Of a stretch of 64,000 nucleotides of DNA, positions 52,632 through 63,876 are shown one piece after another (the first letter of the stretch is position 1; each line of letters starts with the position of its first letter). The stretch lies in NCBI GenBank assembly GCA_043753565.1, contig JAYUWM010000074.1:25273-89272 (forward strand), read 5' to 3'. The notes below the pieces were generated by a model. The model was not told the DNA's origin, searched no databases, and saw only the letters and a program-made list of their open reading frames with translations. The position numbers were made by a program, and so were the translations under genes. This DNA comes from a bacterium. Lineage in GTDB: Bacteria > Patescibacteriota > Saccharimonadia > Saccharimonadales > SZUA-47.

Positions 52632-52726
52632 ACCATATTTAAGTACCCTAGCAGCCCTGAAGCCCTGAAGCCCTGAAGCCCTGAAGCCCTTGCTGTGGTT
52701 TTAACACAAAGGTACTTAAATATGGT
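52632..52726 (-). ncRNA. CCAUAU-type long hairpin H1
   Basis: 16-bp arms accatatttaagtacc/ggtacttaaatatggt. The interior carries (GCCCTGAA)x4. The arm overlaps the CCA of tRNA-Thr. Confidence 0.6.
52654..52690. repeat. octamer tandem repeat (GCCCTGAA)x4 + partial
   Basis: Exact 8-bp repeats inside hairpin H1. Confidence 0.9.
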
Positions 52727-52797
52727 GCCCAGTGTCCGGATTGAACAGACGACCTATCCCTTACAAGGGGATTGCACTACCGCTGTGCTAACTGGGC
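52723..52797 (-). tRNA. tRNA-Thr(UGU)
   Basis: Acceptor GCCCAGT/ACTGGGC, anticodon loop CUUGUAA, T-loop UUCAAUC, CCA encoded. Confidence 0.9.
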
Positions 52798-52808
52798 ACG
52801 TAACTTGT

Positions 52809-53081
52809 TTATACAGATTCTTTAGTTACATCTGTCATTTTTAGCGGGTCAAAACGACGATACATAGTCTTTACATCAAACTTATCACGAATACGTGCAG
52901 CTTCTGCAAGGAAGTCGCTTTTTGCTGCTTCGTTTTCTGCAATGAATAGTCCCTGGTCTTCTACGCTAAGCTCAGAAATATCGACGCCTTCATACATATT
53001 ATTAGGACTAACAGTAACATAAAGAGCACGCTGGCTGGCTTTGTGGTCGGCTTTAGTGTAAGTAAATTGCATGAAGTTCAT
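52809..53081 (-). CDS. hypothetical protein
   Basis: 90-aa ORF downstream of a promoter. Confidence 0.5.
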   Translation of the reverse strand: MNFMQFTYTKADHKASQRALYVTVSPNNMYEGVDISELSVEDQGLFIAENEAAKSDFLAEAARIRDKFDVKTMYRRFDPLKMTDVTKESV

Positions 53082-53109
53082 TGTATTTTGCTTTCTGTGT
53101 TTAAGTATT

Positions 53110-53138
53110 AATTATACAGCGATTTATGTACTAAATCA
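53110..53138 (-). promoter_or_regulatory. early-type promoter TTGATT-17-TATAATTAAT
   Basis: -35 at 53138-53133, -10 at 53115-53110. Confidence 0.6.
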
Positions 53139-53232
53139 AGTCAATATTTAGTGACTAATAGGTGGGTACTTATACCGTCTGTGTAAGTATATATTATACA
53201 GCTTTAAGCAAAACTAATCAACTCTAAAATTT

Positions 53233-53484
53233 TTAATCTTCTTTGAATAGCCCATCATAAACGTGCTTTTGAAAGATTAAACTAAGATAAGGGTGAGTAA
53301 AACTAAAAAACACTAGGGGGGCTGCTATTAAAGCTACTACAAAAAAGGCGAAATATACGGTGCCTTTGTTAAACACTGCAAAGCCTTCTGCCTCTCGCCT
53401 TAAGATAGCAGGTCTTAAGCTAACGATGATTGCGGTAAGTGCTGTTGTTATTGCAAACAGGATATAGAGTAAAACTAACTCCAT
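53233..53484 (-). CDS. membrane protein (hypothetical)
   Basis: 83 aa with two to three hydrophobic helices. Confidence 0.5.
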   Translation of the reverse strand: MELVLLYILFAITTALTAIIVSLRPAILRREAEGFAVFNKGTVYFAFFVVALIAAPLVFFSFTHPYLSLIFQKHVYDGLFKED

Positions 53485-53485
53485 C

Positions 53486-53884
53486 TTAAGCCGGTACTCT
53501 TAGATTAGCCCGCGCTGCAATAGAGAAATAAGACTCTCGCATAGCTTTAGTTTCCGGCTTAAGAGTAGTTCTAGCAGCAACGGGGCTTTGAGCTTGAAGT
53601 GCTGCACGAGAAATCTCAACATTAGCACTCATAATAGCGCGATTAAACTTACCACCAAACAGTTTAAATAGTTTAGCGGCTGCAATCCAGCTTGCTGACC
53701 ACTCTTGATTCACGGGAGTTTTACGACGGTAAACCATGCCCTTTAAGGCAAGCTTTGCCTGCTCGTTATTAGGCTGATTACGGATAGTTCGTTCCAACCT
53801 GGCTTTACGGTTAGTTTCCCAGCGGCGGCTGGTTTTGTAAACTGAAGAGGCTGCGACTGCTGTTTTACTTTTTGCTTTTGACAT
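53486..53884 (-). CDS. basic hypothetical protein
   Basis: 132 aa, Lys/Arg-rich. Confidence 0.5.
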   Translation of the reverse strand: MSKAKSKTAVAASSVYKTSRRWETNRKARLERTIRNQPNNEQAKLALKGMVYRRKTPVNQEWSASWIAAAKLFKLFGGKFNRAIMSANVEISRAALQAQSPVAARTTLKPETKAMRESYFSIAARANLRVPA

Positions 53885-53907
53885 AGGTTTTATTAGAAGT
53901 TAAGTTT

Positions 53908-54315
53908 TTAAGATTCTGCGCCTTGAACCAAGATGTTGTATAAATAGGCTTCTACAACTTCAGGGTCTTGGAATTGTTTGATAACCATACGATGTTTAAT
54001 GTACTTGGCTACGCGTTTTAGGATAAACAAAAGCGAAGAAATTTCCGAACTATCAAAAGGTACTTCATCGCCACCAGATACAACTGTAATCGTCGGAATT
54101 TTCAAGGTTTTAGCTTGCTTAATTTGACTAATAAGTTCGTCTAAAGAATCTACGTGAAATTCTACATACCTATAAGCCGTATCAGATATACTAATTTTAG
54201 TGTCTGTAAAACTTACTGCATAATAAAAGGGTACTCCTGCAGGGCTACGAAACAAGCAGCCGGGGTCTAGTTTAGAAATAGAGTTATCAGGGACAGGACA
54301 GATGAGAAATTCCAT
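53908..54315 (-). CDS. hypothetical protein
   Basis: 135-aa ORF. Confidence 0.5.
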   Translation of the reverse strand: MEFLICPVPDNSISKLDPGCLFRSPAGVPFYYAVSFTDTKISISDTAYRYVEFHVDSLDELISQIKQAKTLKIPTITVVSGGDEVPFDSSEISSLLFILKRVAKYIKHRMVIKQFQDPEVVEAYLYNILVQGAES

Positions 54316-54345
54316 TGTATATTCTTAGTTGGTTATTTAGTTAAT

Positions 54346-54422
54346 TGGTAGATCGACTGGGATTCTAACCCAGGATCAACGGCTTATGAGGCCGCTGCTT
54401 TAGGACTCTAAGCTATCGACCT
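54346..54422 (-). tRNA. tRNA-Met or Ile2 (CAU)
   Basis: Acceptor AGGTCGA/TCGATCT, anticodon loop CUCAUAA, T-loop UUAGAAU, CCA encoded. Confidence 0.8.
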
Positions 54423-54428
54423 TTATTT

Positions 54429-54511
54429 TGGTATCCCTGGCCAGATTCGAACTGGCACGCCAAAGGCGGGAGATTTTAAGTCTCCTGTGTCTACCGTTCC
54501 ACCACAGGGAC
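54429..54511 (-). tRNA. tRNA-Leu(UAA)
   Basis: Anticodon loop CUUAAAA, long variable arm CGCCUUUGGCG, T-loop UUCGAAU, CCA encoded. Confidence 0.85.
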
Positions 54512-54517
54512 AAAAGG

Positions 54518-54982
54518 TTACATAGACCAGTAAAATGCTGTAAATGCGTGCTTTACAGCATATGCAATATCTTCTTTTTTATAGTTTTTCAATAGCGGCA
54601 ACTGGATAGTCTCACCGTTTAAGAATTTTTGTGTAGCTCCCGCATTACCGATCTTCTTGCTAAAAGAGTCTGCTGTTGAGCACACATGCACAGCTACGTC
54701 TACCATTGCACCAGAGCTATAGGGGCTAGACTTTTGATAGGCAACGGTCATACCGCCCTTTGGGTGCTCCGGGTCGTAAATATGTACGATGCCTATAGCG
54801 TTATCAGGTTTTTGCGGCTTATTAGCTTCTACTACGTCTGTTTCAAGTACGGGAAAGGGCCAAACAGTATCCGAAGTGCCGGAAGCAAACTCCATACCTG
54901 AAGTGTTTTTTGATGTGCGACTAGGAAAGGCGTTCTGGAATAGTTTAATAAGTTCAGGAGGCAGATTAAGGGGGTTAGTCAT
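54518..54982 (-). CDS. hypothetical protein
   Basis: 154-aa ORF downstream of a promoter. Confidence 0.5.
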   Translation of the reverse strand: MTNPLNLPPELIKLFQNAFPSRTSKNTSGMEFASGTSDTVWPFPVLETDVVEANKPQKPDNAIGIVHIYDPEHPKGGMTVAYQKSSPYSSGAMVDVAVHVCSTADSFSKKIGNAGATQKFLNGETIQLPLLKNYKKEDIAYAVKHAFTAFYWSM

Positions 54983-55007
54983 ATTGTTTTCTGTTTAATA
55001 AGTAATA

Positions 55008-55036
55008 ATTATATCAAAGTTAAGCACACTAATCAA
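55008..55036 (-). promoter_or_regulatory. early-type promoter TTGATT-17-TATAAT
   Basis: -35 at 55036-55031, -10 at 55013-55008. Confidence 0.6.
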
Positions 55037-55566
55037 GTAGATTTTTTAATACCTAGTTTAAGCTCTTCTAGGGAAATAGGTGTATAGTCTTCTAGTTGTT
55101 CCATACATACACATACGTATCTAGGGTCAGGAAGTTTAGTACTTTCAAAGGTTACTACGTTAGAGTGTAAGTGTCCGTGTACATTTACAGGCCAACGACC
55201 TAGGCTATTAACATGCACAGGAATGTGTGTAAGCAGCATACCGTCAAATTGGTGGCTGCCTCTAACGTCTTTAAAGTATTTTACGTACTCTGTTAGTTTT
55301 TCTTTATCGTGATTACCTTTGATAAGCACTTTTTCACCGTTTAGTCTTGCTACGTTAGCTAGTGCTTTCTTGTTAAAAGCTACATCACCTAAAAAGTACA
55401 CTTTATCCGAAGGCTTTACCGTTTTATTATGTTGAGCAATCATATGCTCATCCATTTCATCTATGTTTTTGAAATCACGAAGAACTGTTACACCATCTGC
55501 ACGAGTAAAGGTAATCATTCCTAAGTGTGAAAAATGGTGATCTGAACAGAGAAAAATGTTACTCAT
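55033..55566 (-). CDS. calcineurin-like metallophosphoesterase (Ser/Thr phosphatase-like)
   Basis: Motifs DHHFSH, GDVAF, GNHD, HGHLH. Confidence 0.8.
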   Translation of the reverse strand: MSNIFLCSDHHFSHLGMITFTRADGVTVLRDFKNIDEMDEHMIAQHNKTVKPSDKVYFLGDVAFNKKALANVARLNGEKVLIKGNHDKEKLTEYVKYFKDVRGSHQFDGMLLTHIPVHVNSLGRWPVNVHGHLHSNVVTFESTKLPDPRYVCVCMEQLEDYTPISLEELKLGIKKST

Positions 55567-55579
55567 ATACTACAATAAA

Positions 55580-55601
55580 GAAAAGCCGCGTATAGGCGGC
55601 T
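55580..55601 (-). terminator. hairpin terminator after tRNA sub-cluster
   Basis: Minus-strand stem AGCCGC/GCGGCU followed by a U-run. Confidence 0.55.
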
Positions 55602-55611
55602 TAGGGTATGG

Positions 55612-55685
55612 TGGCGGGGCATGGGAGAATCAAACCCCATCAGCGGATAGACAATCCGCGATAACGGCCGTTATATGAATGCCCG
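55612..55685 (-). tRNA. tRNA-Asp(GUC), atypical
   Basis: Anticodon stem GCGGA/UCCGC with loop UUGUCUA. Has a C1.C72 mismatch, a weak T-stem, and ends GCCACCA (double CCA). Confidence 0.6.
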
Positions 55686-55790
55686 TGGTATAGCGTGTAG
55701 GATTCTAACCTACGAAAAGATACTTTAACTAGCGACGCCTTGTCTAGTTATATAAGTTTACCGTGTCTTACGGCTCTCACTTAACGCTAT
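55686..55790 (-). ncRNA. 105-nt tRNA-like RNA without recognisable anticodon arm
   Basis: Perfect acceptor ATAGCGT/ACGCTAT with A-CCA, T-arm GUAGG-UUAGAAU-CCUAC. The core is replaced by two hairpins (CCGU-AAGAC-ACGG; ACUU..UAACUAG-11nt-CUAGUUA..AAGU). Confidence 0.55.
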
Positions 55791-55795
55791 AATAT

Positions 55796-55870
55796 TGGTA
55801 CTCTTTCGTGGTTTTGAACCACGCCGCACGGATTTTCAGTCCGCCGCTCTACCAAATGAGCTAAAAGAGT
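55796..55870 (-). tRNA. tRNA-Phe(GAA)
   Basis: Acceptor ACTCTTT/AAAGAGT, anticodon loop CUGAAAA, T-loop UUCAAAA, CCA encoded. Confidence 0.9.
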
Positions 55871-55877
55871 AAGTTGT

Positions 55878-56165
55878 TTATCCTTCTATCCAGACTGGTG
55901 TGCCAGTCATAGTATATCCGTCGTGCTTTTTAGAATCATAAAGCTCCCAAGTACCTTCTATGTTTTCGTCTGCTGAATCGTTGTCACATTCTTCATCTTC
56001 ATCTTCAGAAGGCGGATAAAAGCCGTACATTTCAGCGTTAGCTATTGCACACTCATTGGCTAAGCTATAAAGCGAGTCATCAGTTGTATCATCCGGGACT
56101 TCAAAAAATTCCCAAGAATCAGTTCCAATAGTATTGGTTGTGCAGTGAATTACAATCTTTTTCAT
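55878..56165 (-). CDS. acidic hypothetical protein
   Basis: Start trimmed to MKKIVIHC (ATG 56165, after AGGAAC). The longer track ORF would run over the promoter. Confidence 0.5.
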   Translation of the reverse strand: MKKIVIHCTTNTIGTDSWEFFEVPDDTTDDSLYSLANECAIANAEMYGFYPPSEDEDEECDNDSADENIEGTWELYDSKKHDGYTMTGTPVWIEG

Positions 56166-56187
56166 TTTAGTTCCTGTTAATGTATTA

Positions 56188-56216
56188 ATTATACAGAAAA
56201 GTAACACAGACTTCAA
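56188..56216 (-). promoter_or_regulatory. early-type promoter TTGAAG-17-TATAATTAAT
   Basis: -35 at 56216-56211, -10 at 56193-56188. Confidence 0.6.
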
Positions 56217-56227
56217 ATAAGAAATTA

Positions 56228-56302
56228 TGGTAGTTCCTCACAGTTTCGAACTGTGGACCTTCTCCGTGTAAAGGAGTTGCTCTACCCCTGAGCTAAGGAA
56301 CT
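56228..56302 (-). tRNA. tRNA-Val(UAC)
   Basis: Acceptor AGTTCCT/AGGAACT, anticodon loop UUUACAC, T-loop UUCGAAA, CCA encoded. Confidence 0.9.
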
Positions 56303-56307
56303 ATAGC

Positions 56308-56616
56308 TTAGTAACTATTGGTGGCTACTGTAACGGGGGTTATTTCTGCGCCTGATAGCTCAAGAAATATATATAGCTTTCCAGGCACCATTTTAGATAA
56401 ACGATTACACTCCAAACGAGCTGCTGCTCTGGATGTGTGTAGCGTAGGGTCTTTGGCGATAGAAAACCCGGAAGAGTTAGAGTAGCTACCTACAATAAAT
56501 CTTTTGTTAAGTACTCCTTCAATGGCTGCGTCGATAGAGTATAATATTGTGTTGTTATTCATACGTTTGCAGTAGCTTGCTAGGTACTCTAGTTCGTTAA
56601 TTGATTCTGGATTCAT
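56308..56616 (-). CDS. hypothetical protein
   Basis: 102-aa ORF. Confidence 0.5.
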   Translation of the reverse strand: MNPESINELEYLASYCKRMNNNTILYSIDAAIEGVLNKRFIVGSYSNSSGFSIAKDPTLHTSRAAARLECNRLSKMVPGKLYIFLELSGAEITPVTVATNSY

Positions 56617-56641
56617 AGTAATTTTTATTTTATTTTATTTT

Positions 56642-56718
56642 TGGTGTGAGATAAGAGATTCGAACTCTTTCTTGCTGGGTGGAAGCCAGCCGTGCTAGCC
56701 GTTAAACACTAACCCCAC
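56642..56718 (-). tRNA. tRNA-Gly(UCC)
   Basis: Acceptor GTGGGGT/ATCTCAC (two G.U pairs), anticodon loop CUUCCAC, T-loop UUCGAAU, CCA encoded. The 5' 24 nt overlap the end of CDS 56695..57060. Confidence 0.85.
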
Positions 56719-57179: not shown

Positions 57180-57185
57180 TTACTA

Positions 57186-57454: not shown

Positions 57455-57528
57455 TGGGGTAATAACGGGTTTCAATCCCTATCTTATAGTTTCACAGACG
57501 ATGGTGCTATCATTACACTATTATTACC
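57455..57528 (-). tRNA. tRNA-His(GUG)
   Basis: Encoded G-1 pairs with C73 (G-GTAATAA...TTATTAC-C-CCA). Anticodon loop CUGUGAA. Weak T-arm (GGG-AUUGAAA-CCC). Confidence 0.7.
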
Positions 57529-57529: not shown

Positions 57530-57823
57530 TTAAAAAGGAATGTCAGTATCCCAAGCACCGTCGTCATACCGAGTAAACTCAGTATACCTGCCATCTTTTT
57601 CAGGTTCTTTAGGGGCTCCCCACTTTTCAAAGTTAGCCATATCTTGAATGGTTTCTATAACAATGTGCTGAAATTTACAGTAGCCTTGCTTTTCTGCCCA
57701 TATTAAGTACTCGTAGTGGTCTTCAATAACGTCACAAACTCTGCAACCTTTTAGTTTACCAAATGTAATTTGATCAAGTAAGCCCAGCTTAGGGTCTTTT
57801 AAGTTTCTAAAGTTTAGGGCCAT
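57530..57823 (-). CDS. hypothetical protein
   Basis: 97-aa ORF; its ATG lies inside the 3' arm of hairpin H2. Confidence 0.5.
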   Translation of the reverse strand: MALNFRNLKDPKLGLLDQITFGKLKGCRVCDVIEDHYEYLIWAEKQGYCKFQHIVIETIQDMANFEKWGAPKEPEKDGRYTEFTRYDDGAWDTDIPF

Positions 57824-57946
57824 ATGTTAGTAGATACGTAAAGTTAACTAAGAAACCCCCAGGCAGGTAGCCCTGTTTCCACTTATGATATGATGCTTCC
57901 AACCACTCTCATATACCCCTTGGGTAGGGTATCTACTAACATATGG
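57820..57946 (-). ncRNA. CCAUAU-type long hairpin H2
   Basis: 18-bp arms ccatatgttagtagatac/gtatctactaacatatgg. It bridges the tRNA-Arg CCA and ATG 57823. Confidence 0.6.
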
Positions 57947-58020
57947 CCTCTCCTGACAGACTCGAACTGCCACCGTACGGTTTCGTAAACCGACGCATTA
58001 TCCATTTGTGCTAAGGAGAG
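57944..58020 (-). tRNA. tRNA-Arg(ACG)
   Basis: Acceptor CTCTCCT/AGGAGAG, anticodon loop UUACGAA, T-loop UUCGAGU, CCA encoded. Confidence 0.85.
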
Positions 58021-58202: not shown

Positions 58203-58412
58203 TTAATCGTTTGTTATGGTAAACACTTTTCTATTAGAGCAGGTAGTAGTTTCATTTCCTATAAAACTAGCTCGGATGCTTACTACTGTACTACTATTCT
58301 TAGCACACAATAGTACGGCTGTGTCTATGTCATTAGAGCTAACGGATTGGTAAAAGCAGCCGCTAAGCATAATGCTAGTCAGTATTGTTATCAGTATTTT
58401 GTTCATCAGCAC
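58203..58412 (-). CDS. small lipoprotein, putative
   Basis: Signal peptide with lipobox MLSGC; overlaps the protease gene end. Confidence 0.5.
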   Translation of the reverse strand: MLMNKILITILTSIMLSGCFYQSVSSNDIDTAVLLCAKNSSTVVSIRASFIGNETTTCSNRKVFTITND

Positions 58413-58992
58413 GCTCTTGTAAAAGTTTAGTACGTTGTTCCATGCGCAAGACTACTTCGTCTACGTCCATCCACAAATCTTTATTATCTAGTAAGGACTG
58501 GATTTCTGCTGGAGATAAGAACTCTTCGTAGATTTCTTTTAAAAGCTGTTCTGACCACTTACGCTCATGCTGAATCTGGCCGTACATCTCGCCACCTTTG
58601 CCCATTGTTCCACCAGAATAATTGTGGAACATAAACATAGAGTGCGGAGTTACCTCAAACTGGTCTGCACATAAAAAGATCATAGTAGCGGCACTCATAC
58701 AAGCACCTTCAACACTACAAATAACCAACGCTTCTGTTTCTGCTAAAACACGCATGAACTGAATACCTGTAAACATATCACCACCGTAGCTGTTAATATA
58801 AATTTTAACAGTATCGTCAGGCTTGCAGTGTCGAATGGTATCAAACCAATCAATGTAATTTTCAGGGCTATCAATAGTACCTGAAATATAAAACTCGTAC
58901 ACGTGAGAGGATGCTTTAGGCTCAATCATTCCAGGGATGCCGTCCCCAAAGATAGGTACTAGTTTACTTGCTTTGGTCATTGTCGCTTTCAT
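58375..58992 (-). CDS. ClpP-like serine protease (S14 family)
   Basis: INSYGGD, G.CMSAA (Ser), and MFHNYSGG (His) resemble the ClpP catalytic motifs. Confidence 0.6.
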   Translation of the reverse strand: MKATMTKASKLVPIFGDGIPGMIEPKASSHVYEFYISGTIDSPENYIDWFDTIRHCKPDDTVKIYINSYGGDMFTGIQFMRVLAETEALVICSVEGACMSAATMIFLCADQFEVTPHSMFMFHNYSGGTMGKGGEMYGQIQHERKWSEQLLKEIYEEFLSPAEIQSLLDNKDLWMDVDEVVLRMEQRTKLLQERADEQNTDNNTD

Positions 58993-58996: not shown

Positions 58997-59071
58997 TGGA
59001 GTCGGGTACTGGAGTTGCACCAGTCTGGTACGGATTTGCAATCCGCTGCCTAACTACTCGGCCAACCCGAC
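58997..59071 (-). tRNA. tRNA-Cys(GCA)
   Basis: Acceptor GTCGGGT/ACCCGAC, anticodon loop UUGCAAA, non-canonical T-loop UGCAACU, CCA encoded. Confidence 0.8.
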
Positions 59072-59191
59072 ATAAATAAGTACTACTCAGCGCTTGAATC
59101 TGTGAAAACCCTGCTCTTCATGGCCTACCTTCACGTTCTGCAGAATAGTGTCGGTTATCGGTGTTCCATTGTAGTTTTTGTAGTAATATGG
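59071..59191 (-). ncRNA. CCAUAU-type long hairpin H3 (imperfect)
   Basis: CCAUA-U-UACUAC ... GUAGUA-CUUAUU-UAUG. It bridges the tRNA-Ser(UGA) CCA and tRNA-Cys G1. Confidence 0.45.
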
Positions 59192-59278
59192 CGGAAAAGG
59201 AGAGGGTCGAACTCTCAAGGCTATTTCTAACTCGACGGTTTTCAAGACCGGTCCCATCGCCAATTGGGTTGCTTTTCC
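59189..59278 (-). tRNA. tRNA-Ser(UGA)
   Basis: Acceptor GGAAAAG/CTTTTCC, anticodon loop CUUGAAA, long variable arm, T-loop UUCGACC, CCA encoded. Confidence 0.85.
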
Positions 59279-59427
59279 TTCTAATTAGAACACTTAGTAA
59301 GTATGCTAATTAGAAGAGTCTCATATAGTGTTAACTGATGAAACTCTGTACTGTTTATCAAATAGGAGTGGACGTGTGACCTCATACCCTATTAGTTCTA
59401 GTACTTTTAAGCACTGCTGCTTAAATC

Positions 59428-59597: not shown

Positions 59598-59602
59598 ATA
59601 TT

Positions 59603-59676
59603 TGGTACCTGCTGATGGTTACGCTCCACCGTCTAACGATTATCAGTCATTGGCTCTACTATTGAGCTAAGCAGGT
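59603..59676 (-). tRNA. tRNA-Ile(GAU)
   Basis: Acceptor ACCTGCT/AGCAGGT, anticodon loop CUGAUAA, non-canonical T-loop AGCGUAA, CCA encoded. Confidence 0.8.
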
Positions 59677-60196: not shown

Positions 60197-60222
60197 TTTA
60201 GAGATTTGTTGTTTAAAGAATA

Positions 60223-60251
60223 ATTATAACGCATTTTGACTAGGGTTTCAA
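60223..60251 (-). promoter_or_regulatory. early-type promoter TTGAAA-17-TATAAT
   Basis: -35 at 60251-60246, -10 at 60228-60223. Confidence 0.6.
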
Positions 60252-60264
60252 GTCTATTTTTATC

Positions 60265-60351
60265 TGGCGGAAAACATTGGAATCGAACCAATCAGCCCAT
60301 TACTGAGCGAGTATTTAGCAAACACTTGTCGCACCTTGCAACACGTCTTCC
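60265..60351 (-). tRNA. tRNA-Ser(GCU)
   Basis: Acceptor GGAAGAC/GTTTTCC, anticodon loop UUGCUAA, long variable arm, T-loop UUCGAUU, CCA encoded. Confidence 0.85.
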
Positions 60352-61659
60352 ATTGAAAACTTAGATAAATGTAAGCTATACACTTATCTAAGTTCTCGCG
60401 AACTTAGGGCTTTAACTGGCTTGCGGCCTAGGACTGGCTACCTTTTAGGTGTAAATCACTATTGCACTTACGGACTGAATACCGGCTCATAAATGGGTGT
60501 GCCTTTGATTACTTAATCACTGAGCTGAATTCGGCTGACTAGGCCCATAGGACTGACTACCTACTGAAGTAATAATTGAATATAAGTAGTCATCTCAAAT
60601 ATTCAACTCATATTTACTACCTTTTCACGGCTGGTTACGTCTAGTGTTATAGTGGGTAGCTTAGGCAAGAGCATAATCACATCTAGCAGGTATATGCAAG
60701 AAACTCTTTCGAGATTCTGCAACCCTGTATTAAAAACACAGAGCGGGTATAAGTGTAGAGCTATGTCAAAGCTCTTAGGAATTCAAGCCCTCGTAGATTC
60801 GCAAATCTACTACATTGCCACCCAGTTATTACACTTATTAGGAACAAATAAACCTAAACAATTTAGCTTGATAAGCATTTTTAGGCTTAGCGTGTACTAA
60901 GCGCAATACTTTTGCTAGCATAGGTTTATTTGTAATGTTTTGATAATCTAAAGTATTAAATTCTACTCGCAACTGCTTTCGTAGCTGATTGGAGATAGGG
61001 CAGAAGCCGTTTTTCCAATAATTTTGCATTGTTTTAATAATCATAATATATGTAAAGGTTAACCTCTGTTCAGAAGTCTTATTAGGGTTAAACAGTTATT
61101 ATCTGTGTACACCGTTATACGTTTTGTAGACCTTAGGTAATTATTCTAAGCTCATACAAGAGCTTTATTGTCATTCTTACTGTGGCCACAGCCAAAGGTT
61201 AATCTTTAAATGCCTTTACGCTAAGATTCTAGCCATAGGAGTATTGAAGTCTCCAGGTAGCTAGCTGCTCTTGCGTTTCGGTTCTGTTTAAAGTTACTAC
61301 AACTTGCCTGAAATCAGGAAATTTGCTACAACTTAGGGTCGAACCATCATCAGAAGGTTACCATAATAATTAGGGCTGTTGCTAAGATTTGTCAACAATT
61401 AAGAACTTGATTAGCGGCCAAACTAAATCGACTATCATTTAAGCTATCTCATGTCCACCCGAATAACAAGTTTTACCTTAGGACATTATTAGGTCCAAAT
61501 AGAGAAGTTATCCGTCTAAGTTCACTACAACTTATTTACACATACAAGGGTGTTGTATGTAGCAAAATCCGAGAGGCTTACACGAACCTAAAACGTCTAC
61601 ATTGATCTTATGTTAAATGTGGGTAGCGCCGGTGTGTCTTACTCTGTCTCTAAGTATTA
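60352..61659 (-). ncRNA. promoter-driven ORF-poor 1.3-kb segment (candidate long structured RNA)
   Basis: A consensus promoter at 61660-61688 fires into it. Only one weak 68-aa ORF is present. It has many 6-9 bp hairpins and short direct repeats. Confidence 0.35.
60838..61044 (-). CDS. doubtful ORF (68 aa)
   Basis: The only minus-strand ORF of 60 aa or more in the ORF-poor segment; no SD at either candidate ATG. Confidence 0.2.
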   Translation of the reverse strand: MIIKTMQNYWKNGFCPISNQLRKQLRVEFNTLDYQNITNKPMLAKVLRLVHAKPKNAYQAKLFRFICS

Positions 61660-61688
61660 ATTATACAATGATTTTATTATTACTTCAA
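61660..61688 (-). promoter_or_regulatory. early-type promoter TTGAAG-17-TATAATTAAT
   Basis: -35 at 61688-61683, -10 at 61665-61660. Confidence 0.65.
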
Positions 61689-61705
61689 GCCTAAATTTTA
61701 CTAAC

Positions 61706-61906
61706 TTACCAGGAAGCTTCGTCTACAACTGTTTTAGTAATAGTTACTAGGTCGCCATTAACCATGGCGACTAGAGATGCTGTTACAAGTGACCCAATAC
61801 CACTAGAAGAGTCTACATTAATAGTAAGGTATTCCGAATCTGGGTACTTAGAATGCCACAAAGTTATAGCAGTTACGTCATCACGGTGTAAGGATATAGT
61901 GTTCAT
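61706..61906 (-). CDS. hypothetical protein
   Basis: 66-aa ORF downstream of a promoter. Confidence 0.5.
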   Translation of the reverse strand: MNTISLHRDDVTAITLWHSKYPDSEYLTINVDSSSGIGSLVTASLVAMVNGDLVTITKTVVDEASW

Positions 61907-61932
61907 TTTGCGGTATTTCCAAATAAGTATTA

Positions 61933-61962
61933 ATTATACAATAAATAATACTTAGTTATCAA
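61933..61962 (-). promoter_or_regulatory. early-type promoter TTGATA-18-TATAATTAAT
   Basis: -35 at 61962-61957, -10 at 61938-61933. Confidence 0.55.
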
Positions 61963-61980
61963 GTTTAAAATTATTAATGC

Positions 61981-62058
61981 TGGCTGACCGTCTTGGAATC
62001 GAACCAAGCTTATTCTTCGTTAACAGCGAAGCGCCTACACCATGTTTGCTTACGGTCA
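61981..62058 (-). tRNA. tRNA-Asn(GUU)
   Basis: Acceptor TGACCGT/ACGGTCA, anticodon stem CUUCG/CGAAG with loop CUGUUAA, T-loop UUCGAUU, CCA encoded. Weak D-stem. Confidence 0.8.
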
Positions 62059-62202
62059 ATTTATTAGTAATCGGTATCCCTCTTCCCGATTGTGTAACTT
62101 GATTTTATAGATGGTTGTCAATTTAGTGTGGCACCAAGAATGACGTTTACCGAGTGTTACTTACCATCAACTCGCATAGGGTTCTTTATCTCTAAAGAAT
62201 AC

Positions 62203-62276
62203 TGGCAGGGGTACTAGGGCTCGAACCTAGAATAACGACGTCAAAGGTCGTTGTGTTACCATTACACTATACCCCA
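62203..62276 (-). tRNA. tRNA-Gln(UUG)
   Basis: TGGGGTA...TACCCCT with U1.U72, anticodon loop CUUUGAC, T-loop UUCGAGC, CCA encoded. Confidence 0.85.
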
Positions 62277-62399
62277 GTAATCATATTTAAGCATACTCCC
62301 ATTTGCCTTATGAGCCGGGTGTTCTTACTGGTTCTTATATACTGCCAACGCGCTAACAATCAGTTGTGCCCATTTACACTAATGCTTAAATATATTTAC
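62277..62399 (-). ncRNA. CCAUAU-type long hairpin H4
   Basis: 12-bp arms atatttaagcat/atgcttaaatat plus outer gtaa/ttac. It abuts the 5' end of tRNA-Gln. Confidence 0.55.
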
Positions 62400-62405
62400 T
62401 ACAAA

Positions 62406-62526
62406 CATATTTATGAATTTTAAATATTAACTACGCCTGACAACGTAGCTGTTTCGCAGGTGTCAGCCTACCGACCTAGGTTCCACGGCATGGTGGAACA
62501 AAAGCCGTCTAAAATTCATAAATATG
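62406..62526 (-). ncRNA. CCAUAU-type long hairpin H5
   Basis: 17-bp arms catatttatgaatttta/taaaattcataaatatg. Confidence 0.6.
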
Positions 62527-62527
62527 C

Positions 62528-62603
62528 GAACTCATTGCAAGCAGGATTCGAACCTACGTTTACCCTAACGGGCCGTCCTAAGCCACTAGACTATTGCGAG
62601 TTC
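62528..62603 (-). ncRNA. tRNA-like module lacking an anticodon loop (Y-RNA/YrlA-like architecture?)
   Basis: D-arm GUCU-AGUGGCUUA-GGAC and canonical T-arm GUAGG-UUCGAAU-CCUGC. The anticodon arm is replaced by GCCC-GUUA-GGGU. Extended 10-bp closing helix GAACUCGCAA/UUGC(AAU)GAGUUC, with no CCA. Confidence 0.55.
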
Positions 62604-62653
62604 TTTGGGTCATGACTCCCAAATCTGGTTAAAGGGTAATTAATCCTCGTGAC

Positions 62654-62765
62654 CATATTTAACAACACTTTAAAGCTACTAGTACACTGTACCGTTACGC
62701 TCCACGCGCGGAGAGTATAATGTTAAGCACCAATCACTCATGAATGATAAATGTTGTTAAATATG
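62654..62765 (-). ncRNA. CCAUAU-type long hairpin H6
   Basis: 14-bp arms catatttaacaaca/tgttgttaaatatg. Confidence 0.6.
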
Positions 62766-62863
62766 ATTAGAGTTAGTTACTTGATGGTACTTAGCACCGT
62801 CTATTACTTAGTATAGGGCACAACTTAACTGCCCGGACGTATTGTCGTTTCACCGAACTCTGA

Positions 62864-62964
62864 CCATATTTAAGTAATCTAATCTTACTATAGTTGGCGC
62901 TATAGATTCGCAACTCGTCAAAGTTACCGGGCTAGTAATTGCCCGTTAAATTACTTAAATATGG
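62864..62964 (-). ncRNA. CCAUAU-type long hairpin H7
   Basis: 15-bp arms ccatatttaagtaat/attacttaaatatgg; two internal hairpins. The arm overlaps the CCA of tRNA-Lys. Confidence 0.6.
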
Positions 62965-63035
62965 TGGGACTGCTAGGTATCGCGCCTAGTTTTACTGGTT
63001 AAAAGCCAGTTACTTCACTTTAAAGTTTCAATCCC
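62962..63035 (-). tRNA. tRNA-Lys(UUU), divergent
   Basis: Acceptor GGGATTG/CAGTCCC, anticodon loop CUUUUAA. T-loop is CGCGAUA and the D-loop lacks GG. Confidence 0.75.
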
Positions 63036-63119
63036 ATTAAATATCCCAACCTTCGCGGTTGAGTGCACCTCGAGTAGCCCTGTAAGGCTTCTGGTGACTA
63101 CCCGCGCTTCTTTTTCTAG

Positions 63120-63153
63120 CTAGTGCCGCAAAGGGGGGGTTTCGCGGCACTAG
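63120..63153. other. strong hairpin with G7 loop
   Basis: ctagtgccgc-aaa-ggggggg-ttt(c)-gcggcactag. A T-rich tract follows on the + strand only. Confidence 0.6.
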
Positions 63154-63158
63154 CGTTT

Positions 63159-63190
63159 GTTTTCGTGTTTTCGTGTTTTCATGTTTTCAT
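63159..63190. repeat. octamer tandem repeat (GTTTTCGT)x2(GTTTTCAT)x2
   Basis: Four contiguous 8-bp units between the hairpin and the stop codon at 63192. Confidence 0.85.
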
Positions 63191-63191
63191 G

Positions 63192-63365
63192 TTAATTATA
63201 TGGTCCGGTGTACACTGGTTTTTCTACTACCCATGTAGGGATATATTGCTGCTGGAAAGGCATACCTGGGTATTCGTGCGTTACACTAGGTTGACCAAAT
63301 GTAACTGTACACTCTTTTGTTTGATCCATTTGCTCTAGCATAGCAATAGCTTCATGAATTTTCAT
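63192..63365 (-). CDS. small hypothetical protein (57 aa)
   Basis: MKIHEAIAMLEQMDQTKECT... Below the ORF-track cutoff; lies 2 nt after the upstream small ORF. Confidence 0.45.
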   Translation of the reverse strand: MKIHEAIAMLEQMDQTKECTVTFGQPSVTHEYPGMPFQQQYIPTWVVEKPVYTGPYN

Positions 63366-63367
63366 AA

Positions 63368-63496
63368 TTAACTCTTTCTAGGCTGATTAGTGTACTGCTC
63401 ATAGTTGGCAGCTTCGTGCCACTGAGCAAATGGAATAACTACGGGGACTGCTGTAAGTGGCAGGCCCCCAAATCCTTGAAATTGAAAGGCTGTCAT
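63368..63496 (-). CDS. small hypothetical protein (42 aa)
   Basis: ATG 63496 after AGAAAGAG; a promoter is directly upstream. Confidence 0.4.
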   Translation of the reverse strand: MTAFQFQGFGGLPLTAVPVVIPFAQWHEAANYEQYTNQPRKS

Positions 63497-63521
63497 GTTT
63501 ACTCTTTCTGTTTAAGTATTA

Positions 63522-63550
63522 ATTATACAGCGAAACAGCTAGCCATTCAA
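63522..63550 (-). promoter_or_regulatory. early-type promoter TTGAAT-17-TATAATTAAT
   Basis: -35 at 63550-63545, -10 at 63527-63522. Confidence 0.6.
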
Positions 63551-63551
63551 G

Positions 63552-63686
63552 TTAATAATCTTCGCGGTATGGGATACCTTGCGCTTTACAAAACATCTTT
63601 TTTAGCCATAGAAGCAAGGCATCACTACGAGCACGTTTCATAGATGATAGGTAAGACTTGTATGTAGGTGTGTATAGTTTTTTCAT
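63552..63686 (-). CDS. small hypothetical protein (44 aa)
   Basis: ATG 63686 lies 4 nt after the tRNA-Thr 3' end; basic peptide. Confidence 0.3.
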   Translation of the reverse strand: MKKLYTPTYKSYLSSMKRARSDALLLWLKKMFCKAQGIPYREDY

Positions 63687-63690
63687 AATG

Positions 63691-63766
63691 TGGAGCTATT
63701 TGTTGGACTTGAACCAACGACCTTACCCATACCAAGGGCAAATTCTACCAACTGAACTAAAATAGC
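63691..63766 (-). tRNA. tRNA-Thr(GGU)
   Basis: Acceptor GCTATTT/AAATAGC, anticodon loop UUGGUAU, T-loop UUCAAGU, CCA encoded. Confidence 0.9.
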
Positions 63767-63876
63767 ATATGTTAACACTAACTTGGCTTCTAAGGGCTTA
63801 TAACAATTAAAGGGCTAGGACCCCCACGTAATTGTAATACCTAACTTTCCTAGAGAAAGGCGTAGTGCTAACATAT
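63767..63876 (-). ncRNA. CCAUAU-type long hairpin H8
   Basis: 13-bp arms atatgttaacact/agtgctaacatat (one A.C mismatch). The 3' arm abuts G1 of tRNA-Thr(GGU). Confidence 0.5.

What the first reader, a model, noticed from the sequence alone, without database searches (positions are those of the whole stretch)
52632..63876. Family of at least 8 long covarying hairpins (CCAUAU...AUAUGG) wedged between tRNA genes - candidate undescribed RNA/DNA element class
Eight inverted repeats with 12-18 bp arms share the closing motif CCAUAU(U/G)U(U/A)A...U(U/A)A(A/C)AUAUGG on the transcribed (minus) strand:
- H1 52632-52726
- H2 57820-57946
- H3 59071-59191 (imperfect)
- H4 62277-62399
- H5 62406-62526
- H6 62654-62765
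- H7 62864-62964
- H8 63767-63876

Beyond the shared base the arms differ but remain complementary: AAGUACC, GUUAGUAGAUAC, AAGCAU, AUGAAUUUUA, AACAACA, AAGUAAU, GUUAACACU. That is compensatory covariation. The interiors (63-95 nt) are unrelated in sequence, have no ORFs and contain their own sub-hairpins.

The 5' arm reuses the encoded CCA of the upstream tRNA (Thr-UGU, Arg, Ser-UGA, Lys). The 3' arm ends on G1 of the next tRNA (Cys, Thr-GGU), abuts tRNA-Gln, or ends on an ATG (57821-57823). Two 'empty' mini-hairpins directly after tRNA CCA ends (59406-59425 after fMet; 62182-62199 after Gln) have only 4-nt loops. The first (UUUAAGCA-GCAG-UGCUUAAA) has the same stem sequence as H4. The large interiors therefore look like insertions into, or expansions of, a basic post-tRNA hairpin.

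Possible roles are RNase III/P/E processing cassettes, stable small RNAs, decoys, or DNA-level junctions for shuffling tRNA cassettes. I know of no described element with this architecture.
Basis: partly seen in the sequence, partly recalled or inferred. Interest (0 to 1): 0.85.

Follow-up and report, generated by a model that had tools for sequence, protein, structure and literature searches.

The report
Small structured RNAs between phage tRNAs
The long hairpins between the tRNA genes of this T5-like phage are real small structured RNAs of the same kind as the "stable RNAs of unknown function" long known in the tRNA clusters of phages T5 and T4, and two of them carry the same pair of complementary hairpin loops as T4 RNAC.

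Summary
Seven of the eight hairpins are real and far beyond chance. The tRNA array holds 7 inverted repeats with perfect arms of 12 nt or more; chance predicts 0.13, and the other 52 kb has none. H3 is not a hairpin but a conserved tRNA-like RNA.

The stems are selected as RNA on the tRNA strand (30 G·U against 4 A·C mismatches) and they covary between orthologues.

The window is a distant T5-like phage. T5's own record annotates "stable RNAs with unknown functions" in its tRNA region. T5 RNA III has the same design: the GCCA of the upstream RNA pairs with UGGC at the start of tRNA-His, around three inner hairpins. The architecture therefore has a precedent.

The interiors are not all unrelated. 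H5 and H7 belong to a family found in at least 13 viral contigs besides this window: a four-way junction with kissing loops UUGACG:CGUCAA (CUGACA:UGUCAG in H5). It has strong covariation and no Rfam match. T4 RNAC carries the same two loops.

Relatives show whole-hairpin gain and loss, replaced interiors, and minimal 4-nt-loop versions at the same junctions.

Best reading: these are sRNA modules released by tRNA processing, and the closing helix serves processing and stability. Their function is unknown.

The parts
52632..52726 (-). H1. Hairpin RNA directly after tRNA-Thr(UGU). The ACCA of the tRNA (52723-52726) forms the base of the stem. The interior holds about 4.5 copies of GGGCUUCAG.
   Evidence: 16-nt perfect arms. 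z = -4.1. The orthologous Thr->Glu junction carries a hairpin in L054, L055 and L056, each with a different interior. L056 keeps the first inner hairpin (UUAAAAC loop) with compensatory changes.
57818..57948 (-). H2. Hairpin RNA after tRNA-Arg(ACG). GGCC(A) pairs with (U)GGCC. The 3' arm contains the AUG (57821-57823) of ORF 57530-57823.
   Evidence: 20-nt perfect arms. z = -4.0. The stem is retained in L054, L056 and L070, with interiors from 4 to 91 nt and a conserved AUGGC start.
59072..59190 (-). H3. Not a long hairpin. It is a conserved tRNA-like RNA ('class E') between tRNA-Ser(UGA) and tRNA-Cys.
   Evidence: z = +0.5. Homologues in L054, L023 and L055 share blocks (GCUACAaUGGAACACCGAuA, GGCCAUGAAGA) and a T-arm-like AGAUUCAAG (GGGUUCAAGUCCC in L055).
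62277..62399 (-). H4. Hairpin RNA that abuts tRNA-Gln. It is present in the window and absent from the closest relative.
   Evidence: Arms 19 nt, 89% complementary. z = -2.3. It is a clean 123-nt indel against L054, bounded by UAAAUAUG on both sides.
62404..62528 (-). H5. Class A RNA: a long closing helix, a variable hairpin P2, hairpin P3 (loop CUGACA), GAAA, then hairpin P4 (loop UGUCAG).
   Evidence: Model R1 gives 84.4 bits, E = 3.5e-17. z = -8.9. The orthologue is L054 5679-5804. The two loops are complementary and differ from the family consensus at both ends of the loop helix, with pairing kept.
62530..62600 (-). tRNA-like RNA without an encoded CCA, closed by an extra outer helix (GAACUC/GAGUUC). 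It lies upstream of H5.
   Evidence: Rfam tRNA 34.9 bits, missed by ARAGORN. Conserved in L054. Fold.
62654..62765 (-). H6. Hairpin RNA. The closing arms are shared with the L054 orthologue, but the interior has been replaced.
   Evidence: 17-nt arms, 94% complementary. z = -3.7. The alignment with L054 5448-5555 keeps only the arms.
62766..62862 (-). X. A further stem-closed element (CAGAGUU.../...AACUCUAAU) that fills the space between H7 and H6.
   Evidence: Inverted repeat I11. 86% identical to L001/L054. The fold is only weakly better than shuffles (z = -1.4).
62863..62965 (-). H7. Class A RNA directly after tRNA-Lys(UUU). Loops are UUGACG and CGCCAA.
   Evidence: R1 gives 80.3 bits, E = 3.7e-16. 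z = -8.0. The orthologue in L001/L054 has compensatory changes in P4 (CUAUAG/CUAUAG becomes CCAAG/CUUGG).
63761..63882 (-). H8. Hairpin RNA whose 3' arm runs into the first 6 nt of tRNA-Thr(GGU).
   Evidence: 20-nt arms, 85% complementary. z = -2.75. Arms are conserved and the interior partly conserved in L054.
52276..52314 (-). 'Empty' post-tRNA hairpin after tRNA-Glu. It has a 17-bp stem starting at the CA of CCA, and a 5-nt loop. It overlaps a promoter-like site.
59406..59425 (-). 'Empty' mini-hairpin after tRNA-fMet (UUUAAGCA-GCAG-UGCUUAAA).
62182..62199 (-). 'Empty' mini-hairpin after tRNA-Gln (UUCUUUA-GAGA-UAAAGAA).
60355..60397 (-). Leader hairpin (19 bp) directly 5' of tRNA-Ser(GCU).
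59278..59316 (-). Leader hairpin directly 5' of tRNA-Ser(UGA).

Best explanation
The hairpins are genes, or modules, for small structured RNAs embedded in the multi-promoter tRNA operons of a distant T5-like phage. They are the same kind of thing as T5 RNA III, IV and 2H and T4 RNAC and RNAD.

Each unit is closed by a 14-20-bp A/U-rich helix. This helix pairs the trailer of the upstream unit with the leader of the downstream unit. The upstream side often includes the discriminator and CCA of a tRNA. The downstream unit may be a tRNA, another sRNA, or an mRNA whose AUG sits in the 3' arm.

Inferred mechanism:
- The units are transcribed with the tRNAs and released by the tRNA-processing machinery.
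- RNase P at the next tRNA's 5' end sets the 3' end of the hairpin RNA.
- An endonuclease cutting just after the CCA, or inside the helix, sets the 5' end. RNase E or RNase III are the candidates.
- The helix then insulates neighbouring tRNAs from misfolding and protects the released RNA from exonucleases.

The interior is a variable payload. It can be nothing (a 4-nt loop), a fast-evolving filler, a tRNA-like fold, or a strongly conserved module. H5 and H7 carry a conserved module: a four-way junction whose P3 and P4 loops kiss (UUGACG:CGUCAA). T4 RNAC contains the same two loops.

Shown here: existence, RNA-level selection, covariation, placement relative to tRNA ends, modular gain and loss, and the precedents. 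Inferred: which RNases act, that the RNAs are stable, and any trans-acting role.
For: - Non-random and confined to the tRNA array.
- RNA-level selection on the tRNA-sense strand. In 66 unique tRNA-proximal hairpins there are 30 G·U against 4 A·C mismatches, p = 6e-6.
- Ends tile with tRNA ends. In 20 of 66 the 5' arm includes 2-5 nt of the upstream tRNA's 3' end, and 11 more start within 10 nt. In 26 of 66 the 3' arm ends within 10 nt of the next tRNA. This is an undercount, because ARAGORN misses tRNAs here.
- Orthologous junctions keep the helix but not its sequence or its interior.
- Class A: 17 hits in 1.2 Mb. 97.5% of cells are paired, against 34-41% in slid controls. 32 of 44 pairs change on both sides, and 0 of 500 shuffles reach this. 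The kissing loops covary.
- T5 precedent. T5 has annotated stable RNAs in its tRNA region. RNA III has the stem GCCACAAUUGAAAA/UUUUCAAUUGUGGC, formed between the CCA end of RNA I and tRNA-His. RNA III, IV and 2H each fold as a long closing helix around 2-3 inner hairpins.
- T4 RNAC has hairpin loops UUUGACGG and CGUCAA. These are kept in EcS1 and UFV01, with compensatory stem changes.
- RNAC and RNAD accumulate in infection and have no known role (PMC3014915; PMC9697503).
- The window's replication module is T5-like.
- There are 11 strong minus-strand promoter-like sites in the array, and the hairpins are not terminator-like.
Against: - There are no expression or end-mapping data for this uncultured phage.
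- H1, H2, H4, H6 and H8 have no detectable homologues beyond the nearest relative. H6's interior is replaced and H4 is absent in L054. Some interiors may therefore have no function of their own.
- No sequence homology to the T5 RNAs was detected. R1 finds only stem-like fragments in T5.
- The similarity to RNAC is limited to two hairpin loops of 10-11 nt each, set in a different overall topology. It could be convergence.
- The lineage-specific (CC)AUAUUUAAG arm motif is not explained. It also occurs where no CCA precedes it.
- A helix that sequesters the CCA could hinder RNase P rather than help it.
Confidence: 0.6

Rival explanations
1. The hairpins are only processing or insulator structures at tRNA junctions, for example RNase III or RNase E sites that separate tRNAs, sRNAs and mRNAs. 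Most large interiors would then be non-functional expansions with no role as RNAs in their own right.
For: - Minimal versions with 4-5-nt loops sit at the same or similar junctions.
- Interior length at one junction ranges from 4 to 91 nt.
- Between 77%-identical relatives, interiors are replaced (H6) or whole units are absent (H4).
- H1's interior is a simple tandem repeat.
- The AUG of a conserved ORF is embedded in the 3' arm of H2.
- The mature ends of T5 RNA III lie inside the helix with a 2-nt 3' overhang, which resembles RNase III cutting.
Against: - Class A interiors (H5, H7) are conserved, with heavy covariation, across at least 13 viral contigs besides this window.
- H3-type and X interiors are conserved too.
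- T5 and T4 counterparts accumulate as stable RNAs (PMC9697503).
Confidence: 0.2
2. The elements act at the DNA level. They would be attC-like or MITE-like junctions, or recombination hotspots, whose conserved arms mediate gain, loss and shuffling of tRNA and sRNA cassettes.
For: - Clean whole-unit indels: H4 in the window only, and an 88-nt unit after tRNA-Ser(UGA) in L054 only.
- H6's interior is swapped between conserved arms.
- The same 9-11-nt arm motif recurs in both orientations across the array.
- H6's arms happen to fit the attC R-box consensus (ATTTAAC...GTTAAAT). This is a direct reading of the sequence.
Against: - The 30:4 excess of G·U over A·C shows that pairing is selected on one strand, as RNA.
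- Interior helices and kissing loops covary.
- The copies do not share interiors, unlike MITEs.
- No integrase or transposase was found among the 30 window ORFs scanned.
- The other hairpins do not fit the attC boxes.
- The arms are too short for ordinary homologous recombination.
Confidence: 0.08
3. They are trans-acting counter-defence or host-takeover RNAs. Examples would be decoys or sponges for anticodon nucleases, tRNA-modifying or tRNA-processing enzymes, or RNA-binding proteins. In this view the closing helix is only packaging.
For: - They sit inside tRNA arrays, which are now seen as anti-defence cargo (PMC11464382; PMC12803027).
- Several interiors are tRNA-like.
- Interiors turn over fast, as expected in arms races.
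- An Rnl2-family RNA ligase gene lies next to the array.
Against: There is no direct evidence and no identified target. T4 RNAC and RNAD have had no phenotype assigned in decades (PMC3014915).
Confidence: 0.1
4. They are intrinsic terminators or attenuators, or chance palindromes in A/T-rich DNA.
For: They are hairpins in non-coding DNA.
Against: - The stems are A/U-rich and lack a U tract, and none is called terminator-like as a whole.
- Chance is excluded.
- The same pattern in 596 Gb of bacterial and archaeal genomes gives only chance-like hits. In 54 of 80 the stem stops at the 10 specified bases, and none lies in a tRNA array.
Confidence: 0.02

Closest known systems
Phage T5 stable RNAs of the tRNA region: RNA III, RNA IV and RNA 2H, plus the tRNA-like RNA 1, 2 and 3. 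They are annotated in NC_005859 as 'stable RNA with unknown functions'.
   Same: - Same phage group.
- Same location: between tRNA genes, on the same strand, in a multi-promoter array.
- Same size, about 100-170 nt.
- Same fold plan: a long closing helix around 2-3 inner hairpins.
- RNA III's helix pairs the GCCA of the upstream CCA-ending RNA with UGGC at the start of tRNA-His. This is exactly what H1, H2 and H7 do.
- Not in Rfam.
   Different: - No detectable sequence homology.
- The T5 helices lack the (CC)AUAUUUAAG motif.
- The window has more copies and they are tandemly tiled.
- No class A RNA is found in the T5 array.
Phage T4 RNAC (species 1 RNA), and RNAD (species 2)
   Same: - Small RNAs co-transcribed with the phage tRNA cluster, with unknown function (PMC3014915; PMC9697503).
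- RNAC has one hairpin with loop UUUGACGG and a second with loop CGUCAA. These blocks are 10-11 nt identical to P3 and P4 of class A (H7 type) and lie in the same 5'-to-3' order.
   Different: - RNAC is a tRNA-like molecule with a T arm and a short acceptor stem, not a long closing helix.
- The UUGACG hairpin caps a long arm, and about 45 nt separate the two loops, against about 16 nt in class A.
- A full-length class A model does not hit RNAC.
- Homology against convergence is unresolved.
rRNA-type processing stems and phage RNase III sites: long helices formed by sequences that flank a mature RNA
   Same: - A helix of about 20 bp brackets the mature RNA and brings both processing sites together.
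- The annotated ends of T5 RNA III fall inside the helix with a 2-nt 3' overhang.
   Different: - Cleavage by RNase III has not been shown for these elements.
- In several copies the 3' end coincides with an RNase P site.
- The host, and so its RNase III specificity, is unknown.
Integron attC sites
   Same: Imperfect inverted repeats 60-140 nt long, with conserved outer boxes and a variable centre, placed at cassette boundaries. Whole units are gained and lost.
   Different: - The strand-specific G·U bias indicates RNA.
- No integrase was found.
- Extrahelical-base and R/L-box rules are not met except by chance in H6.
- The interiors carry conserved RNA folds.
Bacterial Y RNA-like RNAs (YrlA)
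   Same: A long terminal helix joined to a tRNA-like module. Some relatives' interiors resemble this: L012 5726-5847 has D and T arms, and L054 17861-17931 and L017 have T arms.
   Different: - No Rfam YrlA or Y_RNA hit in the window at E <= 1.
- No Ro60 (TROVE) protein among the 30 window ORFs scanned.
- No bulged Ro-binding helix.

Membership tests
Phage tRNA-cluster small stable RNAs (T5 RNA III/IV type) | Encoded inside a phage tRNA gene cluster, on the tRNA strand, abutting tRNA ends | tested here: met
   All units lie in the minus-strand array at 52.3-63.8 kb. Their arms overlap or abut tRNA ends.
Phage tRNA-cluster small stable RNAs (T5 RNA III/IV type) | About 100-170 nt, with 5' and 3' ends paired in a long helix that encloses several hairpins | tested here: met
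   Met for H1, H2 and H4-H8. Not met for H3. The T5 RNAs fold the same way.
Phage tRNA-cluster small stable RNAs (T5 RNA III/IV type) | The closing helix uses the CCA end of the upstream tRNA(-like) RNA and the first nucleotides of the downstream tRNA | tested here: met
   T5 RNA III has GCCA...UGGC. In the window, H1, H2 and H7 use the CCA, H3 also abuts an encoded CCA, and H8, H4 and H3 abut the next tRNA.
Phage tRNA-cluster small stable RNAs (T5 RNA III/IV type) | Accumulates as a discrete stable RNA in infected cells | not testable with these tools
   The phage is uncultured and no RNA data are available.
Phage tRNA-cluster small stable RNAs (T5 RNA III/IV type) | Sequence or structure homology to a T5 RNA | tested here: not met
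   BLAST of the window elements against loci fetched before T5 found only L001, the same contig as L054. T5 itself was tested only with the class A model R1, with filters off, which gave only stem fragments.
T4 RNAC (species 1 RNA) | Two hairpins with loops UUGACG and CGUCAA | tested here: met
   H7 has UUGACG and CGCCAA. H5 has the compensated CUGACA and UGUCAG. RNAC is shown.
T4 RNAC (species 1 RNA) | tRNA-like T arm (GGUUCGAAUCC) and a short acceptor stem at the ends | tested here: not met
   Class A has a closing helix of about 22 bp (20 + 3 pairs in the model) and no T arm.
T4 RNAC (species 1 RNA) | Detectable full-length homology | tested here: not met
   In the T4 locus R1 hits only the P4-like hairpin, at E = 3.4.
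Integron attC site | R''/L''...L'/R' boxes (RYYYAAC...GTTRRRY), folding as ssDNA, and an associated IntI integrase | tested here: not met
   Only H6 fits the boxes. The G·U bias points to RNA. No integrase was found among the scanned ORFs, though not every ORF was scanned.
MITE / terminal-inverted-repeat element | Copies share interior sequence and have target-site duplications | tested here: not met
   Interiors differ between copies apart from the H5/H7 RNA core. No consistent duplications are seen.
Intrinsic terminator | G+C-rich stem followed by a U tract | tested here: not met
   The stems are A/U-rich and no U run follows the 3' arms.
Y RNA / YrlA | Rfam model match, Ro-binding bulged helix, and a neighbouring rsr gene | tested here: not met
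   No match at E <= 1 in 50-64 kb. No TROVE domain in the scanned ORFs.
RNase III processing stem | Cleaved on both strands with a 2-nt 3' overhang by RNase III | not testable with these tools
   There is only an indirect hint, from the annotated ends of T5 RNA III.

The most novel reading that the evidence does not exclude
The UUGACG:CGUCAA kissing-loop module shared by class A RNAs (H5, H7 and at least 13 other viral contigs) and by T4 RNAC is one ancient functional RNA device. It would be carried in different scaffolds by T4-like and T5-like phages. The A/U-rich closing helices would then make such RNA payloads exchangeable cassettes in tRNA arrays, gained, lost and swapped at the arms. If so, these arrays are toolkits of trans-acting RNAs, for example against tRNA-targeting host defences or for control of tRNA processing, and not just tRNA supplements.
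Probability: 0.25. Interest if true: 0.75.

Novelty: new variant of a known kind. Interest (0 to 1): 0.55.

Why it matters
Small stable RNAs in the tRNA clusters of T4 (RNAC, RNAD) and T5 (RNA I, III, IV and others) have been known for decades. Their role is still unknown (PMC3014915; PMC9697503).

This window and its metagenomic relatives show three things:
- Such RNAs are widespread in T5-like phages.
- They follow a common building rule: a closing helix tied to tRNA ends, plus a payload.
- At least one payload is a strongly covarying four-way junction with kissing loops that is also present in T4 RNAC.

This gives a comparative handle: alignments, a covariance model, compensatory mutants to design, and two cultivable model phages. 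An old open question becomes directly testable.

It also matters for annotation. These arrays contain many non-tRNA RNA genes that neither tRNA finders nor Rfam report.

Tried and rejected
- Rfam 15 at E <= 1 over 50-64 kb found only tRNAs. The same holds for the T5 and T4 arrays.
- Megablast of the array against INPHARED found only tRNA fragments. Blastn of a class A RNA found no match.
- The pattern CCATATTTAA-N55-85-TTAAATATGG in GTDB genomes gave 85 chance-like hits, none in tRNA arrays. The element is not a bacterial feature.
- BLAST of H1-H8 and X against the loci held at that point (L001-L053) found homologues only for H7 and X, in L001. The other orthologues were found only by synteny.
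- R1 was run on T5 and T4 with filters off and gave no full-length hit.
- The region around the pVp-1 DNA polymerase was fetched to look for a cultured relative's array. It holds no tRNAs.
- Literature searches for the original T5 stable-RNA papers found nothing in the library. The T4 genome review is not held.
- Terminator, coding, attC, MITE and Y RNA readings were considered and rejected (see the membership tests). Short ORFs overlapping the hairpins are 40-58 codons, mostly start with GTG or TTG, overlap tRNAs, and were not pursued.
- An anticodon-loop mimicry reading of the GAC and GUC loop cores was considered but could not be tested.

Full report
**1. What is in the sequence**

ARAGORN finds 17 tRNA genes on the minus strand between 52.3 and 63.8 kb. 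Rfam adds five more tRNA or tRNA-like hits: 57458-57527, 59193-59278, 59606-59676, 62533-62600 and 62965-63035.

- H1: 16-nt arms
- H2: 20 nt
- H5: 17 nt
- H7: 20 nt, 95% complementary
- H6: 17 nt, 94%
- H4: 19 nt, 89%
- H8: 20 nt, 85%

Interiors are 63-91 nt. Nothing comparable exists in the first 52 kb.

My own count gives 7 inverted repeats with perfect arms of 12 nt or more and 30-150-nt gaps in the array. There are none elsewhere, and 0.13 are expected in first-order Markov simulations. CATATKTWA occurs 15 times against 4.7 expected, and ten of these sit in hairpin arms.

All but H3 fold better than dinucleotide shuffles, with z from -2.3 to -8.9. H3 gives z = +0.5 and is not a long hairpin.

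The flanking claims hold: the CCA of Thr-UGU, Arg-ACG, Ser-UGA and Lys-UUU lies in the 5' arm, the 3' arms reach Cys, Thr-GGU and Gln or the ATG at 57821-57823, and both mini-hairpins exist.

I found further 'empty' hairpins at tRNA borders: after tRNA-Glu (52276-52314), before tRNA-Ser(GCU) (60355-60397) and before tRNA-Ser(UGA) (59278-59316). I also found another stem-closed element, X (62766-62862), that fills the space between H7 and H6.

**2. What genome this is**

The large ORFs are a T5-type replication module: family A DNA polymerase, DnaB-like helicase, SbcCD, ribonucleotide reductase, a split NAD-dependent ligase, a flap endonuclease and a primase. The polymerase is 47% identical to those of Vibrio phage pVp-1 and E. 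coli T5-like phages.

No close relative exists among 50,697 deposited phage genomes. IMG/VR holds many relatives. A Clp-protease-like ORF inside the array (58375-58992) has 285 related loci. The closest are L054 (87%), L055 (85%) and L056 (81%).

**3. The hairpins recur in other phage tRNA arrays**

Scanning IMG/VR for CCATATTTAA-N55-85-TTAAATATGG gave 23 loci. About half lie inside tRNA arrays of other large viral contigs, and their stems extend well beyond the ten specified bases.

The same pattern in 596 Gb of bacterial and archaeal genomes gave 85 hits that behave like chance. In 54 of 80 the stem stops at exactly 10 nt, and none is in a tRNA array.

Related arrays use variants of the arm start: CCAUAUAAAA, CCAUAUUGAA, CCAUAUAUUAG, CCAUAAUUAU and UAUUUAUAAG.

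**4. RNA or DNA?**

I oriented 66 unique tRNA-proximal hairpins on the tRNA strand and counted isolated non-Watson-Crick positions inside their stems. There are 30 G·U against 4 A·C, p = 6e-6. On the opposite strand every G·U would be a C·A mismatch. Pairing is therefore selected in the transcript of the tRNA strand.

The array contains 11 strong promoter-like sites (TTGAxx-17-TATAAT), all on the minus strand. The hairpins are not terminator-like.

**5. Relation to tRNA ends**

In 20 of 66 hairpins the 5' arm includes the last 2-5 nt of the upstream tRNA (CA, CCA or NCCA). Eleven more start within 10 nt. In 26 of 66 the 3' arm ends within 10 nt of the next tRNA. This is an undercount, because ARAGORN misses tRNAs in these phages.

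The helix thus pairs the trailer of one unit with the leader of the next.

tRNA trailers without hairpins are also A/U-rich. In the window, H4, H5, H6 and H8 carry the (C)AUAU(U/G)U start without a preceding CCA. The arm motif is therefore a property of the elements, not just a by-product of the CCA.

**6. Orthologous junctions**

After tRNA-Arg(ACG), four relatives keep a helix. It runs from the discriminator and CCA to AUAUGGC, whose AUG starts a conserved ORF (M-A-...-L-K-D-P). The arm sequences differ but stay paired. Perfect pairs run 19 bp in the window and 14 bp in L056. L070 has about 17 bp with one mismatch, by my reading of that output, and in L054 the whole GCCAUAGACUAAUAUAUCU arm pairs in the fold. 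Interiors are 91 nt (window) and 4 nt (L056, loop GUAG), and about 45 nt in L054 and L070 by the fuller stems (69 and 38 by the perfect-stem count).

At the Thr(UGU)->Glu junction every relative has a hairpin, but the payloads differ. L056 keeps H1's first inner hairpin with compensatory changes. L054 has a T-arm-containing mini-RNA.

Against L054, which is about 77% identical in DNA:
- H7, X, the tRNA-like RNA at 62530-62600, and H5 are conserved.
- H6 keeps its arms, but its interior is replaced.
- H4 is a clean 123-nt indel bounded by UAAAUAUG on both sides.
- L054 has an extra 88-nt hairpin unit right after the CCA of tRNA-Ser(UGA), which the window lacks.

It also shows that the units are gained and lost as modules.

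**7. The interiors are not all unrelated: class A**

H5 and H7 share a core with many metagenomic elements. From 5' to 3' it consists of:
- the closing helix P1
- (U)UGACGG
- a variable hairpin P2
- UUCGGU
- a 6-bp hairpin P3 with loop UUGACG
- GAAA
- a 6-bp hairpin P4 with loop CGUCAA
- AAUAU
- the 3' strand of P1

A covariance model (R1) finds 17 hits in 1.2 Mb of window plus loci. These include H5, H7 and their two L054 orthologues. It finds none in T5.

On the resulting alignment 97.5% of cells form standard pairs, against 34-41% when partners are slid by 1-3 columns. 32 of 44 pairs show changes on both sides, and 0 of 500 shuffles reach the observed values. The alignment is model-fitted, which favours the structure, but the margin is large.

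The two loops are complementary. In H5 and its orthologue they are CUGACA and UGUCAG, so both terminal pairs of the loop-loop helix are compensated. I read this as a kissing interaction.

Some members have entirely different P1 sequences (L027, L039, L041, L044). The CCAUAU motif is therefore lineage-specific and not needed for the class A fold.

No Rfam family matches.

**8. Other payloads**

H3 belongs to a conserved tRNA-like class, with homologues in L054, L023 and L055 and a degenerate T arm. Some relatives' interiors are plainly tRNA-like. L012 5726-5847 has D and T arms, with the anticodon arm replaced by a UACG-capped hairpin. L017 and L054 17861-17931 have T arms.

H1, H2, H4, H6 and H8 have no detectable homologues beyond L054.

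**9. Known precedents**

The T5 RefSeq record annotates, inside its tRNA region, misc_RNAs described as 'stable RNA with unknown functions' (rnaI, rnaIII, rnaIV, rna2H, rnaX) and 'tRNA-like stable RNA' (rna1, rna2, rna3).

RNA III, RNA IV and RNA 2H each fold as a long closing helix around 2-3 hairpins.

The local T5 order is RNA I (ending ...GAGCCGCCA), then CAAU, then RNA III (UGAAAAUUCG...CGAGUUUUCAAU), then tRNA-His (UGUGGC...). This gives the helix GCCACAAUUGAAAA/UUUUCAAUUGUGGC, which is the same CCA-to-next-tRNA design as H1, H2 and H7.

The annotated ends of RNA III lie inside that helix with a 2-nt 3' overhang. This is compatible with RNase III, but also with RNase P acting on tRNA-His plus a separate 5' cut.

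T4 encodes RNAC and RNAD next to its tRNAs. Their roles are unknown (PMC3014915), and they are detected late in infection by northern blot (PMC9697503).

Folding RNAC shows one hairpin with loop UUUGACGG and another with loop CGUCAA. These blocks are 10-11 nt identical to class A P3 and P4 and lie in the same order. They are invariant in two diverged T4-like phages, while the CGUCAA stem changes compensatorily. By simple arithmetic, the chance that TTTGACG and GCGTCAAC both occur in one 139-nt RNA is about 2e-5.

RNAC otherwise differs: it has a T arm, a short acceptor stem and a longer spacing between the loops. R1 does not recover it.

**10. Interpretation**

The best-supported reading is that these are sRNA modules of the T5 RNA III and T4 RNAC kind. 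They would be released from tRNA operon transcripts by the tRNA-processing machinery. The closing helix would serve as a processing, insulation and stability element, and the interior as a variable payload.

The identity of the nucleases, the stability of the RNAs, and any trans-acting function are inferences.

The main rival is that most hairpins are only junction or processing structures with junk interiors. This may well be true for H1, H2, H4, H6 and H8, but it does not fit class A.

A DNA-level cassette-junction role is disfavoured as the primary function by the strand-specific G·U bias. Even so, the indel pattern suggests that the repeated arms help units come and go.

**11. Verdict**

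However, the architecture is not undescribed. It is a new, lineage-specific variant of a known but functionally unsolved kind of phage RNA. The most interesting new points are the class A family, its shared kissing-loop module with T4 RNAC, and the modular 'closing helix plus payload' rule.

Noticed in passing
window 57530-57823 (start codon 57821-57823): The AUG of a conserved small ORF lies in the 3' arm of hairpin H2, paired with the CAU that follows the CC of tRNA-Arg's CCA. There is no Shine-Dalgarno sequence upstream. The same arrangement is kept in L054, L056 and L070. Translation may depend on processing of the hairpin, perhaps giving a leaderless mRNA.
   Followed up: partly
window 52653-52689: The interior of H1 holds about 4.5 tandem copies of the 9-nt unit GGGCUUCAG. 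The orthologous hairpin in L056 has no such repeat.
   Followed up: partly
window 62530-62600: A tRNA-like RNA with D and T arms, a 4-bp acceptor, no encoded CCA, and an extra outer helix (GAACUC/GAGUUC). It is conserved in L054. ARAGORN misses it, and Rfam tRNA gives 34.9 bits. It resembles T5's 'tRNA-like stable RNAs'.
   Followed up: partly
window 57458-57527, 59193-59278, 59606-59676, 62965-63035: Rfam calls these tRNA genes or tRNA-like RNAs, but ARAGORN does not. tRNA counts for such phages are underestimated by a single tool.
   Followed up: partly
window 52270-52298, 61933-61962, 63522-63550 and eight more minus-strand sites: Strong sigma-70-like promoters are spread through the array. 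At least three (52270, 61933, 63522) continue as TGTATAATTAAT..., and two of these as ...ACTTA. The one after tRNA-Glu has its -35 in the loop and its spacer in the 3' arm of a post-tRNA hairpin.
   Followed up: no
window 63877-64000: A non-coding stretch upstream of H8 is highly conserved with L054 (UUUUUAUUGCCUGCUAGUAGCA...UAGCUGCACGAUGGUACGCAGAA). It may be another RNA gene. The window ends here, and L054 shows that the array continues with more tRNAs and hairpins.
   Followed up: no
window 48527-49507; 47529-48482 and 46703-47458; 38599-39372: An Rnl2-family RNA ligase (PF09414) lies next to the tRNA/sRNA array. The NAD-dependent DNA ligase appears split into two ORFs; two NAD-dependent ligase ORFs are also annotated in the T5-like Vibrio phage pVp-1. 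A LAGLIDADG-like ORF sits among the replication genes.
   Followed up: no
L134 (T5) 14853-14892: T5 has an A/U-rich hairpin directly 5' of tRNA-Arg, at the 3' end of 'RNA X' (UGUAUUUUUAAGAG...CUCUUAAAAAUACU). Its arms resemble the AUAUUUAAG/CUUAAAUAU motif of the window.
   Followed up: no
L007 10-405: ARAGORN predicts a permuted tmRNA (tag ANDTQFALAA*) at the edge of a related viral tRNA array.
   Followed up: no
class A P3 and P4 loops (window 62404-62528 and 62863-62965): The invariant loop cores are GAC and GUC. These are the anticodons of tRNA-Val(GAC) and tRNA-Asp(GUC), so the kiss resembles an anticodon-anticodon pairing. Its significance is unknown.
   Followed up: no
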